Part shown: in pieces, positions 1,456 to 28,814 of the stretch
Position numbering within the stretch: the first letter of the stretch is position 1
Layout of the letters: each line of letters starts with the position of its first letter
Assembly: GCA_046292385.1 (NCBI GenBank)
Contig: JBKBRF010000008.1
Location: 95,499-159,498 of the forward strand
Origin: Armatimonadota bacterium
GTDB taxonomy: Bacteria > Armatimonadota > SYMT01
Length of the DNA stretch: 64,000 nt
Direction of reading: 5' to 3'
Translations under genes and position numbers: made by a program
Notes under the pieces: model-generated
The model's input: the letters and a program-made list of their open reading frames with translations, nothing else
The model's database searches: none
Told to the model about the DNA's origin: nothing

Positions 1456-1924
1456 CCGGCTTTCGCACCGCAGCGCTGCCGCCGCCCGGCGACGAGGCGG
1501 GGCGAGAGGAGGAGCCCCTCCCCCCTCCCATCGCGCCCGGCTCCATATAGCCGAGCTCCCAGAGGTGCCCGTCCGGATCCTCGAAGGCGTGGACGTACAT
1601 GAAGCCGTGATCCTGCGCTTCCCGGGGGATCTTCCCGCCCGCCGCTGCGGCCTTCGCGACCGTCTCGTCTACCTGCTCCCGGCTGTCGCAGGAGAGGGCG
1701 ACCAGCACCTCCGTGCAGCGGGTCGCGTCACACAGCTCTTTGGGGGTGAACGTTTTGAAGGCATCCTCGGCGAGCAGGTGGACGAAGGCGTGGTCGTCGA
1801 TGACGATGCACGCCGAATGCTCGCCCGTGAACCTGGGCTCGAAGCTGAACCCCAGGGCGGTGAAGAAGGCGATGGAGCGCTGCACGTCCTTGACCGGCAG
1901 GTTGACGAAGATCTGACGGGGCAT
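1418..1924 (-). CDS. VOC/glyoxalase family protein
   Basis: IFVNLPVKD...FFTALGF and DHGFMY..AFEDPDGHLWE. A low-complexity tail overlaps the convergent gene. Confidence 0.88.
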   Translation of the reverse strand: MPRQIFVNLPVKDVQRSIAFFTALGFSFEPRFTGEHSACIVIDDHAFVHLLAEDAFKTFTPKELCDATRCTEVLVALSCDSREQVDETVAKAAAAGGKIPREAQDHGFMYVHAFEDPDGHLWELGYMEPGAMGGGRGSSSRPASSPGGGSAAVRKPVRRRALPAGKRG

Positions 1925-2122
1925 TCCTGGGCCTCTCCCTTTCATGGTGCGTGAGTCGGGGTCTGGAGCTGTCGAGGACGAGTGGCTCCGGCGGCTGCAA
2001 CCGGCGTCTTAGTCCCCTCTGTGCTGCTCACGCCGAGATTCCTCTAAGGATGCGCAGATTCTGCCGGCGGTTATCGCGCCCGTGACCTTGCAAAAGGGGA
2101 GGGGCCGGTCTGGAGGCGTCTT

Positions 2123-2400
2123 TGCTTCTCTTCGAGATGCAGCATCGAGCCCGCGACCCGACCCCGCGCCCTTGTGCCGGGAGGCAGCCCTCCCGCGACG
2201 CAGGCCCTCCGCGGCCTTTTCACACTCCGCTGCGCTCCGTTAGCAGGCCGCTGCGGGAGTAGGCTCCGGTAAGCCCATCCCGCGCCAGGAGGCGTAACCC
2301 GTGCCGACAGGGAAGCTCACGGGCTGCCTCCCGACCCTTCGAGCGACCACCCCTGCCACCCAGGGGTGGTCACAACTGGCGCCCTCTGGGCGCCTGCGGT
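2123..2400 (-). ncRNA. Candidate structured RNA or dispersed element, copy A
   Basis: Collinear similarity to 2488-2777 (inverted) and 28386-28663, with covarying helices (see findings). Confidence 0.6.
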
Positions 2401-2487
2401 CTGGGCACGCTCGGCAGCCGACGGGCTACCGCGAGCCGGTCCAGCACGACCGGGCTTCGCGCCCCCGGGCGTGGGGATCTGCGAAGG

Positions 2488-2777
2488 CCGGAAGCGCTGC
2501 CGGAGGCAGGGCTGGAGGGTTTCACCTGTGACCACCCCTGCGAGGGGTGGTCGCTTGAGCCGCCCGGAGCGGCCCGTGAGTCGCCGCATCGCCACTACCG
2601 CAGGCCACAAACGCGGAGCGCAGCCTACCGAAGTGCACGCCCGGAGCAGTCCGCTAGCGGAGCCGCAGGCGGAGCGTGAAAGGACTGCGGGAGGGCCAAA
2701 CACGCGGGAGGGCCGCTCCGGGTGGGGAGGGCGCGGGGTGGACCCTCGGCGCGATGCTGATCTCGACTAACCAAGCA
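2488..2777 (+). ncRNA. Candidate structured RNA or dispersed element, copy B
   Basis: Hairpin 2528-2554, long-range stem 2566-2575/2710-2719, and stem 2646-2652/2682-2688 enclosing GCTA...GTGAAA. Confidence 0.6.
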
Positions 2778-3149
2778 TTCTCCCGCCGCCTGGAGGTTGG
2801 GTGCGGCATCAGCCGCGTGGTGAGTCTGTCGAACGCTTTCTCGTGAATTCGACAGTCTCCCCGACGAGTTTCTCTTGCCAGAAGGAGACGCGCAGCGGGA
2901 GTGCTCGGCGCCTCTCCCGGCACTACGGTCCTGCCACGAGGAAGCGGCCTCTCGCTGCGGAACACGCGATACGCACTACGCCCCCACCCGCCCCGCGGCA
3001 GCATCCCACGGTTCCGGGCACGGCTCACCACCAAGGACAACCCGCAGCGAACCCGTGATACAAATGGTTCGGCCTGGCGGGCCTGGCTCCGGCGAGAGGA
3101 GCCCCGCCTGCCGACACAGATTTTTCCGCCGGCGGACCGGGAGTCTCCG

Positions 3150-28385: not shown

Positions 28386-28663
28386 CTCTTCCCCTGGGCA
28401 GCGTCGAGTCCGTGGCTCCGACCCGCGCCCTTGTCGGCGGAGACAGCCCTCCCGCGGCGAGTGCCCTCCGCGGTCTTTTCACGCCCTTCGGGCTAGCAGA
28501 CCGCTCCGGGAGTCCGCCCCGTGTGGCTCTTCCCGCGTCACTGCGCTCTACCGCGTCAATGGTAGGGTTCACGGCCTGTCTCCGCCGCCTTCGAGCGAGC
28601 CCCCTGCGCCCAGGGGGCTCACAGGTGGCGTCCTGCGGCCCAGCCTTCCGGCTGTGCCTCCGG
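28386..28663 (-). ncRNA. Candidate structured RNA or dispersed element, copy C
   Basis: Third diverged copy of the 2.1-2.8 kb element, with compensatory helix changes. Confidence 0.6.
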
Positions 28664-28814
28664 ACGCCGAAAGTGTCAGTATCGGGGGCGGTGGACCGTC
28701 GGTGCGAGGGGGCAATCGGCCGGTGGATGGGGTCGGGGAAGAGCGTTCAGGCAGGAATGCGTGCTTGAATTGGGTAATCCGATAGCAACGTCTGTTCGTA
28801 ACGAGGCACGCTGC

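What the first reader, a model, noticed from the sequence alone, without database searches (positions are those of the whole stretch)
2123..2777. Multi-copy ~250-300 nt element with covarying helices: candidate new structured RNA
Seen: two diverged copies lie inverted with their 5' ends facing (A ~2123-2400, B ~2488-2777), and a third (C) is at ~28386-28663. Read in B's orientation, one helix is GCAGTCC/GGACTGC (B), GCGGCCT/AGGCCGC (A) and GCGGTCT/AGACCGC (C). It always encloses GCTA-[variable hairpin]-GTGAAA. A long-range helix is GGAGCGGCCC/GGGCCGCTCC (B), GGAGGCAGCCC/GGGCTGCCTCC (A) and GGAGACAGGCC/GGGCTGTCTCC (C, one mismatch). A 5' hairpin GTGACCACCCCT/AGGGGTGGTCGC (A, B) becomes GTGAGCCCCCT/AGGGGGCTCGC (C). 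All three keep a T-G pair that is a wobble on only one strand, which points to the functional strand. Inference: selection on a single-stranded fold, such as an undescribed ncRNA or ribozyme, a stand-alone guide/bridge-type RNA, or a non-autonomous ssDNA/RNA mobile element. I do not recognise the family.
Basis: partly seen in the sequence, partly recalled or inferred. Interest (0 to 1): 0.88.

Follow-up and report, generated by a model that had tools for sequence, protein, structure and literature searches.

The report
Large folded mobile repeat family, Armatimonadota
The three look-alike stretches are copies of an undescribed, roughly 290-base non-coding element that occurs more than 130 times in this uncultured soil bacterium, keeps an elaborate single-strand fold, and behaves like mobile DNA rather than like a gene switch.

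Summary
The family has 134 near-full copies in this 7.0-Mb genome (147 matches to the structure model). It was found in 3 of 7 genomes of one Armatimonadota family and in none of the 94 other genomes of the phylum sample. Rfam has no match.

The fold covaries strongly: 98% of cells are paired, and 18 of 45 pairs show compensatory changes within the genome (25 of 45 across genera). G-U pairs outnumber A-C pairs 609 to 87, which fixes the folding strand.

New findings:
- Copies sit in intergenic DNA, at random with respect to neighbouring genes, and positions are not shared between genera.
- Units fall into two paralogous types. 26 of 27 adjacent pairs are head-to-head and combine one unit of each type.
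- The window's A-B pair is one roughly 800-nt mobile composite (about 2019-2822). It has fixed ends, no terminal inverted repeats and no target duplication, and it inserts after CTGT.
- An IS110 element targets one of the unit's hairpins.

No transposase, reverse transcriptase, guide-RNA nuclease, promoter or RNA data could be linked to it.

Best reading: a non-autonomous element that works through a folded single strand, DNA more likely than RNA. A new large ncRNA class is not excluded.

The parts
2019..2022 (+). CTGT directly to the left of the composite; the presumed target or cleavage tetranucleotide
   Evidence: Alignment of 12 composites and 8 solo elements. Similarity begins at (T)CTGT. 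The left copy varies between insertions (CTGG, ACGT, CTAC...), while the one at the right end stays CTGT.
2023..2062 (+). Left end (LE) of the composite. The consensus is ACTACTCACCGCGAGAATCTTG..GCGCAGATTCT, with the hairpin AGAATCT/AGATTCT. The window copy is mutated (GCTGCTCACGCCGAGATTCC...), so its hairpin is weakened.
   Evidence: There are 22 LE hits in the genome, all next to A- or B-type units, and none encloses an ORF.
2066..2455 (-). Type-1 (A-type) element lying reversed inside the type-2 element. It comprises a 5' leader, unit A and a 3' extension of about 65 nt. The right limit is approximate.
   Evidence: Solo B elements read LE-TCC|CGGGGAGTGCTCC..GGAGCCCGG. Composites carry about 390 nt at that point. 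A soil-metagenome contig joins window 2065 to 2488 with 21 nt in between, which is the solo form (table 5c).
2131..2428 (-). Unit A, type 1 (T1)
   Evidence: CM R1 match G000:C8:97629-97926, 225.3 bits. Typed T1.
2474..2769 (+). Unit B, type 2 (T2)
   Evidence: CM R1 match G000:C8:97972-98267, 282.9 bits. MFE -157 kcal/mol, z = -2.86.
2770..2822 (+). Right end (RE) of the composite. The consensus is ..TTGAGTTTGGTTGCGGCATCAGCCGCGCTGT|G, with the hairpin GCGGC-ATCA-GCCGC. The window copy has 2 mismatches in the last 20 nt (2803-2822).
   Evidence: An RE-like motif lies within 130 nt downstream of 23 of 58 T2 units, against 109 of 2000 random 130-nt windows.
28390..28677 (-). Unit C, a solo type-1 copy between a DUF1501 gene and an AMP-binding enzyme gene
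   Evidence: CM R1 match G000:C8:123888-124175, 196.8 bits. Neighbouring genes.

Best explanation
The stretches are copies of a lineage-restricted family of non-autonomous mobile elements. Its roughly 290-nt module must fold on one defined strand into a multi-helix structure with at least nine helices. The module comes in two paralogous types, T1 and T2.

What the sequence shows:
- In the subfamily present in the window, the transposing unit is LE-T2-RE (about 400 nt), or the same element with a T1 element lodged head-to-head between LE and T2 (about 800 nt).
- This unit has no terminal inverted repeats and makes no target duplication.
- It lands in a fixed orientation just after CTGT and itself ends in CTGT.

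What is inferred:
- This end logic fits single-strand transposition by a HUH (Y1) enzyme, or core-sequence recombination supplied in trans.
- The folded form acts as single-stranded DNA rather than RNA, because two of its hairpins are capped mostly by C-GNA-G triloops.
- The fold is what the unknown enzyme recognises, which would explain why stems stay paired while sequences drift to 67% identity.
For: Copy number and spread.
- nhmmer finds 150 hits, 134 of them covering at least 200 model positions.
- The CM finds 147, 14 and 8 matches in G000, G005 and G006, and 0 in four other genomes of the family.
- In the phylum sample, 3 of 101 genomes have matches.

Placement looks like that of mobile DNA.
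- 11 of 134 units overlap a called gene, and the downstream gene is co-oriented in 66 cases and opposed in 68.
- The 107 loci lie in 52 tandem, 27 convergent, 22 divergent and 6 contig-edge settings. The background split of intergenic length is 60/22/18%.
- The G005 pair lies between the PfkB and NIF3 genes, while the orthologous G000 spacer (C55:5957-6112) is empty.

Fixed ends.
- Twelve composites and 8 solos share LE and RE and lose similarity exactly there.
- None of the 22 LE hits encloses an ORF.

Independent insertions.
- Four copies of another repeat (R3 MITE) carry the composite at four different CTGTG repeats of their inverted repeat, always in the same orientation relative to CTGTG. 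Other R3 copies (147-380 bp) are empty.

Fold under selection.
- Searches give the covariation figures.
- Private substitutions in the young subfamilies number 58 in 388 paired columns against 119 in 396 unpaired columns, and 26 of the 58 keep the pair.
- Strand: G-U to A-C is 609:87.

Hints for DNA rather than RNA.
- C-GNA-G triloops cap the P1 inner hairpin in 76 of 134 units (GNRA in 4).
- They cap 55 of the 60 internal hairpins that were detected (GNRA in 0).
- According to passages of the review PMC13037366, such mini-hairpins melt at 76.5 C as DNA, against 39 C for r(GCGAAAGC), and they mark ssDNA origins and ssi signals.

No RNA signals.
- The window stretch 1900-3000 has 0 promoter-like and 0 terminator-like sites.

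A possible enzyme class exists. Y1 (HUH) genes are present in G000, G005 and G006.
Against: - No mobilising enzyme could be tied to the element. The two strong Y1 genes of G000 are not flanked by units, and their flanks share no more than 7-9 nt with LE or RE.
- Y1 genes also occur in genomes where no element was found: G002, G004 and, weakly, G001.
- LE and RE hairpins do not resemble each other, unlike classical IS200/IS605 ends (read).
- There is no clear bias relative to the replication strand. 49 of 80 solos have the sense strand on the C-rich strand, Fisher p = 0.07. This rests on a crude skew proxy in a draft assembly.
- LE and RE are shown only for the A/B subfamily: 22 LE hits, and RE-like motifs at 23 of 58 T2 units. 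The ends of most T1 and T2 solos remain undefined.
- A 290-nt fold with conserved purine-rich junctions and two invariant G-U pairs is far more elaborate than any known transposase end. It looks like a functional RNA.
- 73 of 134 units are singletons at 83% identity, yet all still fold. This fits a function at each locus as well as it fits turnover of active elements.
Confidence: 0.5

Rival explanations
1. The unit is a gene for a new large structured non-coding RNA: the scaffold of a ribonucleoprotein, a ribozyme, or an RNA needed for the element's own spread in the way omega or bridge RNAs are. Under this reading the T1 and T2 units of a pair are transcribed divergently from the short spacer and may act together. 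Mobility is then how the gene family spreads, not the purpose of the fold.
For: - The fold is complex and conserved across three genera: 94.4% of cells are paired and 25 of 45 pairs show compensatory change.
- Junction nucleotides are conserved, and two G-U pairs are invariant: 43 of 43 and 21 of 21.
- Hairpins are lengthened or swapped in single copies without disturbing the rest (L019, L012, L006).
- Stems are under purifying selection even for private changes.
- The heterotypic head-to-head pairing (26 of 27) is also seen in G005.
- From recall: HEARO, also multi-copy, about 300 nt and often without an ORF, later proved to be the IscB omega RNA.
Against: - No promoter- or terminator-like site was found.
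- There is no orientation preference towards genes.
- No IscB, TnpB or Y2 gene was found in 5 genomes, and G000 has no reverse transcriptase.
- Units show no excess complementarity to their own flanks.
- GNA triloops dominate and GNRA tetraloops are almost absent.
- Copy number ranges from 0 to 147 among genomes of one family.
Confidence: 0.3
2. The units are host-domesticated single-strand DNA signals, such as priming or single-strand initiation sites, or recombination or protein-binding sites. They would be comparable in role to BIMEs, which bind IHF, gyrase and Pol I.
For: - The C-GNA-G mini-hairpins are typical of ssDNA initiation signals (passages of PMC13037366).
- Units alternate in type within inverted pairs, as the Y and Z units do in BIMEs (abstract of PMC2817692 in the listing).
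- The structure is maintained in highly diverged single copies.
Against: - The units are missing from 4 of 7 genomes of the same family and are not syntenic between genera, so no conserved host role is evident.
- No significant bias relative to the replication strand was found.
Confidence: 0.1
3. The copies are a decaying repeat without any present constraint, and the apparent covariation is inherited from a few founder subfamilies.
For: - Two young subfamilies (A 16+2 copies, B 15+6) inflate raw cell counts.
- The tool text warns that related sequences can exceed shuffles.
Against: - Seventy-three singletons at less than 83% identity still score as full-length matches.
- Slid-structure controls, which keep relatedness, fall to a covariation score of at most 0.092 against 0.312, and at most 0.088 against 0.401 across genera.
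- Private changes are half as frequent in stems, and 45% of them keep pairing, against roughly 17-25% expected by my own estimate.
Confidence: 0.05

Closest known systems
REP / BIME / REPIN elements with RAYT (Y1 HUH) transposases
   Same: - High-copy intergenic repeats that fold on a single strand.
- Two unit types combined in inverted orientation, as the Y and Z palindromic units are in BIMEs.
- Both singlets and doublets occur.
- Used as a landing site by IS110-family elements.
   Different: - The units are about 290 nt with at least nine helices, not 20-40-nt palindromes.
- The arms of a pair are only about 61% identical, so a pair cannot form one long hairpin.
- No cognate RAYT is flanked by the units.
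IS200/IS605-derived non-autonomous elements (PATEs) and their TnpA logic
   Same: For the A/B subfamily:
- No inverted terminal repeats and no target duplication.
- Strand-specific insertion after a fixed tetranucleotide, with the element ending in the same tetranucleotide.
- Subterminal hairpins at both ends.
   Different: - LE and RE hairpins are unlike each other.
- No tnpA gene carries these ends.
- No lagging-strand bias was shown.
- The element contains a large folded module of unknown use.
HEARO / IscB omega RNA and TnpB omega RNA (multi-copy, ~200-300-nt structured RNAs of IS200/IS605 elements)
   Same: - Similar size and fold complexity.
- Many copies per genome, including copies without an ORF.
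- Sits inside a mobile element of the same end logic.
   Different: - No Rfam match.
- No IscB or TnpB gene in the 5 genomes searched. The IscB control was uninformative.
- No guide-like relation to the flanks.
Structured MITE-like repeats with conserved RNA folds (ERIC/IRU of enterobacteria, bcr1 of the Bacillus cereus group; recalled, not tested here)
   Same: Dispersed intergenic repeats whose helices are kept through compensatory changes.
   Different: - Those repeats are 120-160 nt, have inverted terminal repeats and/or target duplications, and are mostly simple hairpins.
- This family is larger and branched, and has neither feature.

Membership tests
Any Rfam 15 family | Match to a curated covariance model | tested here: not met
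   - Gathering scan of the whole window: only 4 tRNAs.
- E<=10 scan of 1900-3000: one 13.9-bit hit outside the units.
- E<=5 scan of 11 loci with units from three genomes and metagenomes: 4 unrelated weak hits.
REP/BIME/REPIN | Short (about 20-40 nt) imperfect palindrome as the repeat unit | tested here: not met
   The unit has 296 model positions and multiple branches.
REP/BIME/REPIN | Inverted doublets, or alternating orientation of two unit types | tested here: met
   There are 27 pairs within 500 nt, all head-to-head. 26 of the 27 combine T1 with T2 (two of these were typed by eye).
REP/BIME/REPIN | A cognate RAYT gene flanked by the repeat | tested here: not met
   The Y1 gene at C51 is flanked by a different 23-nt hairpin. 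No unit lies next to the C51 or C22 Y1 genes. No LE or RE similarity to their flanks.
IS200/IS605-type non-autonomous element | No TIR, no TSD, oriented insertion 3' of a fixed short target | tested here: met
   Shown for the A/B subfamily only.
IS200/IS605-type non-autonomous element | Matching subterminal hairpins recognised by a TnpA encoded with the same ends | tested here: not met
   LE and RE hairpins differ. No ORF lies between any LE and RE. Y1 gene flanks are unrelated.
IS200/IS605-type non-autonomous element | Orientation bias relative to the replication fork | tested here: inconclusive
   49 versus 31 of 80 solos, p = 0.07, using a GC-skew proxy on a 91-contig draft.
Omega RNA (IscB/TnpB) / HEARO | An IscB or TnpB nuclease in the element or the genome | tested here: not met
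   PF07282: 0 of 5 genomes, and the control rang in 8 of 14. PF14239: 0 of 5, but the control rang nowhere, so this result is weak.
IS110 bridge RNA | Encoded in the non-coding end of an element with a DEDD recombinase; loops complementary to target and donor | tested here: not met
   - Units have no ORF.
- The genome's IS110 element has its own ends, called R2 here.
- No excess of exact matches of 10 nt or more to a unit's own flanks, for example 3 of 66 own against 20 of 526 control. Short split guides would escape this test.
MITE | Terminal inverted repeats plus target-site duplication | tested here: not met
   The ends are CTGT|ACTACTC... and ...GCGCTGT|G. The left CTGT varies while the right one does not.
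Retroelement / SINE-like RNA | A reverse transcriptase available in the genome | tested here: not met
   PF00078: 0 matches in G000, the genome with the most copies. The control rang in 3 of 14 genomes.

The most novel reading that the evidence does not exclude
The unit is a new class of large structured nucleic acid. It comes in two paralogous forms that work as an obligate divergent pair. It would be either an RNA (a ribonucleoprotein scaffold or ribozyme that drives its own spread without any known nuclease, recombinase or reverse transcriptase), or the folded end of a new kind of single-strand DNA transposition system whose recognition structure is ten times larger than any known.
Probability: 0.3. 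Interest if true: 0.85.

Novelty: new variant of a known kind. Interest (0 to 1): 0.66.

Why it matters
Large, intricately folded nucleic acids that persist in many copies have repeatedly led to new biochemistry. From recall: HEARO led to IscB guide RNAs, and IS110 ends led to bridge RNAs.

This family gives a clean, data-rich case:
- More than 130 diverged copies in one genome, plus relatives in two further genera.
- Defined ends and a defined target for one subfamily.
- A two-type pairing rule.

It therefore offers a ready alignment for structure work. It also poses a concrete question: which enzyme reads a 290-nt fold, and does it read it as DNA or as RNA?

There are practical points too. 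The repeats make up a few per mille of the genome, and the IS110 element that targets them lies at many contig ends. Together they explain several unannotated "ORFs" and provide a natural multi-copy landing pad for an RNA-guided recombinase.

Tried and rejected
- **Cis-regulatory leader or riboswitch:** rejected. Orientation to the downstream gene is 66 same against 68 opposite. The type of intergenic region matches the background.
- **Coding sequence:** the overlapping ORFs are artefacts of the 69% GC content. Copies differ by indels confined to loops and by paired changes.
- **Expression:** no RNA holder was listed. Laying contigs of four runs gave no usable information on transcription.
- **Guide or bridge reading:** the longest exact matches between units and their own flanks equal the controls.
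- **Link to Y1 transposases:** no adjacency and no shared ends. Y1 presence does not track element presence.
- **TnpB, IscB, Y2 and RT:** none usable. The IscB and Y2 controls rang nowhere.
- **Replication-strand bias:** not significant.
- **Precise empty sites between genera:** the spacers are too diverged to align.
- **Family members outside the phylum:**
43 of them, from other phyla, failed the CM. This is not an exhaustive negative.
  - A stricter pattern found only 4 metagenome stretches, all true members.
  - No match in the plasmid or phage collections.
- **Common termini for the many singleton units:** the flanks share nothing detectable by BLAST. Possible short motifs seen by eye (ACTC[AG]C upstream of T1 units) were not tested.
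- **Literature:** searches for Armatimonadota repeats or ncRNA and for structured interspersed repeats (listings only) returned nothing on this family.
- One phylum-wide CM search failed on the server and was repeated with n=100.

Full report
**What is in the window.**
An own profile and a covariance model place the units as follows:

| Unit | Profile | CM | Strand |
|---|---|---|---|
| A | 2131-2391 | 2131-2428 | - |
| B | 2477-2766 | 2474-2769 | + |
| C | 28396-28674 | 28390-28677 | - |

There are no other hits in the window. Rfam gives nothing:
- The whole window at gathering scores yields only four tRNAs.
- The region 1900-3000 at E<=10 yields one 13.9-bit hit in the spacer.
- Eleven unit-bearing loci from three genomes and metagenomes at E<=5 yield four unrelated weak hits.

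The neighbouring genes are ordinary. A glyoxalase-like gene and a class II fructose-bisphosphate aldolase gene flank A-B. A DUF1501 gene and an AMP-binding enzyme gene flank C.

**How many copies, and where.**
The window is G000:C8:95499-159498 of a 7.04-Mb draft with 91 contigs and 68.9% GC.
- Earlier notes of this scan call the organism an uncultured Armatimonadota bacterium.
- A same-family relative, G005, carries that label in its public record.

Copy counts in the genome:
- BLAST finds 133 places of at least 150 nt.
- A profile built from 121 copies finds 150 hits, 134 of them covering at least 200 of about 298 positions.
- The covariance model R1 finds 147 matches.

Spread beyond the genome:
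- The model also finds 14 matches in G005 and 8 in G006, which belong to other genera of the same family. It finds none in the four other genomes of that family.
- In a sample of 101 genomes of the phylum, only these three have matches.
Its 43 stretches from other phyla all failed the model.
- A stricter motif found four JGI metagenome stretches, all true members at 114-130 bits.
- Plasmid and phage collections hold nothing similar.

**The fold is real and belongs to one strand.**
On 43 copies, RNAalifold predicts 45 pairs, 18 of them with compensatory changes. The pair counts against their controls are:

| Measure | 43 G000 copies | 21 copies, G005 and G006 |
|---|---|---|
| Cells paired | 98.0% | 94.4% |
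| Cells paired, shuffles | 88.8% (0 of 500 as high) | 79.9% |
| Cells paired, slid structures | at most 53.2% | — |
| Pairs with compensatory change | 18 of 45 | 25 of 45 |
| Covariation score | 0.312 | 0.401 |
| Covariation score, shuffles | 0.136 | 0.144 |
| Covariation score, slid structures | at most 0.092 | at most 0.088 |

The cross-genus alignment was fitted to the model, which favours it. Over 73 predicted pairs in 134 units there are 609 G-U cells and 87 A-C cells.

Single copies carry extra or swapped hairpins that leave the rest of the fold intact (rows L019, L012 and L006).

**It is not a leader, a terminator or a coding region.**
- Eleven of 134 units overlap a gene called by my crude GC3 caller.
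- The downstream gene is co-oriented in 66 cases and opposed in 68.
- The 107 loci lie in 52 tandem, 27 convergent and 22 divergent intergenic regions, with 6 at contig edges. This is close to the 60/22/18% split of intergenic length.
- No sigma-70-like promoter and no intrinsic-terminator-like site is found in 1900-3000.
- The 43 neighbouring genes in G005 and G006 are metabolic, envelope or defence genes with no recurring partner.

**It moves.**
- Positions are not shared between genera. The G005 pair sits between the PfkB and NIF3 genes, while the orthologous G000 spacer is 155 nt long and empty. Other orthologous neighbours in G000 lack units or have them kilobases away.
- Within G000, clustering at 83% identity gives two young subfamilies (A-type 16+2 copies, B-type 15+6) and 73 singletons. 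Mean pairwise identity is 67%.

**The A/B subfamily has sharp ends.**
- Twelve A-B composites and eight B solos lose similarity at the same two points.
- The left end reads CTGT|ACTACTCACCGCGAGAATCTTG...GCGCAGATTCT. The right end reads ...TTGCGGCATCAGCCGCGCTGT|G.
- Both ends hold a small hairpin.
- There is no terminal inverted repeat. The left CTGT varies between insertions while the right one does not, so it is not a target duplication.
- None of the 22 LE hits encloses an ORF.

**The composite has inserted independently.**
- Another repeat, the R3 MITE, has 33 hits to its inverted repeat.
- It exists empty (147-380 bp) and in four copies that carry the composite.
- The insert sits at four different CTGTG repeats of the MITE's inverted repeat, always in the same orientation relative to that motif.
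- These are therefore independent, oriented, site-specific insertions.

**What this means for the window.**
The mobile entity runs from about 2019 to 2822. Comparing solos with composites shows that the A-type element (about 2066-2455) lies reversed between LE and unit B. One soil-metagenome contig shows the solo form of this junction (table 5c). The window's LE and RE both carry mutations.

**Two unit types and a pairing rule.**
- All 27 pairs of units that lie within 500 nt of each other are head-to-head. No other arrangement occurs.
- Units split into T1 (71), T2 (58) and 5 unclear.
- 24 pairs are T1+T2. Two more are T1+T2 when the unclear units are read by eye. One is T1+T1.
- The arms of a pair are less alike (61%) than random units (67%).
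- Only about ten of these pairs are independent events, because 12 are copies of the A-B composite.
- G005 also has three head-to-head pairs whose arms have different hairpin types. G006 and G005 also hold same-orientation arrays.

**Selection.**
In the young subfamilies, private substitutions number 58 in 388 paired columns against 119 in 396 unpaired columns. Of the 58, 26 keep the pair. My own rough neutral expectation is 17-25%.

**DNA or RNA?**
- Two hairpins are capped mostly by C-GNA-G triloops: 76 of 134 units for the P1 inner hairpin, and 55 of the 60 internal hairpins detected. GNRA tetraloops number 4 and 0.
- Passages of the review PMC13037366 state that d(GCGNAGC)-type mini-hairpins are extraordinarily stable as DNA (Tm 76.5 C), while r(GCGAAAGC) melts at 39 C. 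They also state that such hairpins occur in ssDNA replication origins and ssi signals.
- The abstract of PMC3201870 (listing) says that d(GNA) loop stability depends on the closing pair.
- This tilts the balance towards a folded DNA strand.
- The invariant G-U pairs and the conserved junctions would be more usual in an RNA.

**Who could move it?**

| Enzyme family | Result |
|---|---|
| TnpB (PF07282) | 0 of 5 genomes |
| IscB (PF14239) | 0 of 5 genomes; control uninformative |
| Y2 transposase (PF04986) | 0 of 5 genomes; control uninformative |
| Reverse transcriptase (PF00078) | none in G000 |
| Y1 HUH transposase (PF01797) | G000: 2 strong; G005; G006 |
| Y1 HUH transposase (PF01797) | also G002 and G004, which lack the element |

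- One Y1 gene in G000 is a RAYT-like gene with its own 23-nt REP hairpins.
- The flanks of the Y1 genes share nothing with LE or RE.
- Sense-strand orientation against GC skew is 49 to 31 among 80 solos, p = 0.07.
- Units show no excess of matches to their own flanks.

**Conclusion.**
The best-supported reading (about 0.5) is a non-autonomous element that is recognised as a folded single strand and is moved in trans by an unidentified enzyme. Its end logic resembles IS200/IS605 or a core-sequence recombinase.

The main rival (about 0.3) is a new large ncRNA whose genes are mobile.

In architecture, the closest known things are BIMEs and REPINs: two unit types in inverted pairs, described in the abstracts of PMC2817692 and PMC3337134 (listing). 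In end logic, the closest are IS200/IS605-derived elements. The family fails the defining tests of each.

These are probably the copies at C4:165350 and C4:170578. That note judged them 'not a jumping element', which the present data do not support.

Noticed in passing
G000:C6:73837-75364 and contig C91; MITE form e.g. G000:C40:35318-35543. In the window, the target point is about 2540 (loop of B's 5' hairpin).: An IS110-family insertion sequence and its 226-nt MITE derivative ('R2') give 84 BLAST hits, 49 of them within 400 nt of contig ends. They insert into the loop of the unit's conserved hairpin P2. Five units are cut at model positions 62-70 and abut an R2 end. In one copy CTGGCGAG appears on both sides. 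A soil-metagenome contig also shows the R2 end at window 2540. The behaviour parallels IS621 and ISPpu10 landing in REPs (abstracts).
   Followed up: partly
e.g. G000:C3:197723-197906, C9:48186-48368, C52:19779-19925: 'R3' is a 147-380-bp MITE with terminal inverted repeats TTCGACACAGAGGGACACAGAAGAACC, built from CACAG repeats. There are 33 hits to the inverted repeat. Four copies carry the A-B composite.
   Followed up: partly
G000:C51:25920-26261 (locus L076, 1424-1995): A RAYT-like Y1 transposase gene is flanked by inverted 23-nt hairpins GCGAGGGGTTGAAAACCCCTCGC. This is a separate REP system. Its 9-mer GCGAGGGGT also occurs in the unit's P2 hairpin.
   Followed up: no
G000:C40:13648-40042: Eight units lie on the same strand over 26 kb, between unrelated genes of both orientations. 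The local strand uniformity is unexplained.
   Followed up: no
G005:C3 (locus L067, 6624-12923): Four same-strand units lie inside or next to a type I-E-like CRISPR-Cas locus (Cas1, Cas5, Cas7 hits). A 3.5-kb stretch beside them has no called gene.
   Followed up: no
G000:C55:5957-6112 and the 5' flanks of several units: Short tandem heptamer-like repeats (CAGGTTG/CAGGTTC...) fill several spacers.
   Followed up: no
G006 records (JANPLG01...): The public title calls this MAG 'Actinomycetes bacterium', while the genome set used here places it in the same Armatimonadota family as the window's genome. The submitter's label may be wrong.
   Followed up: no
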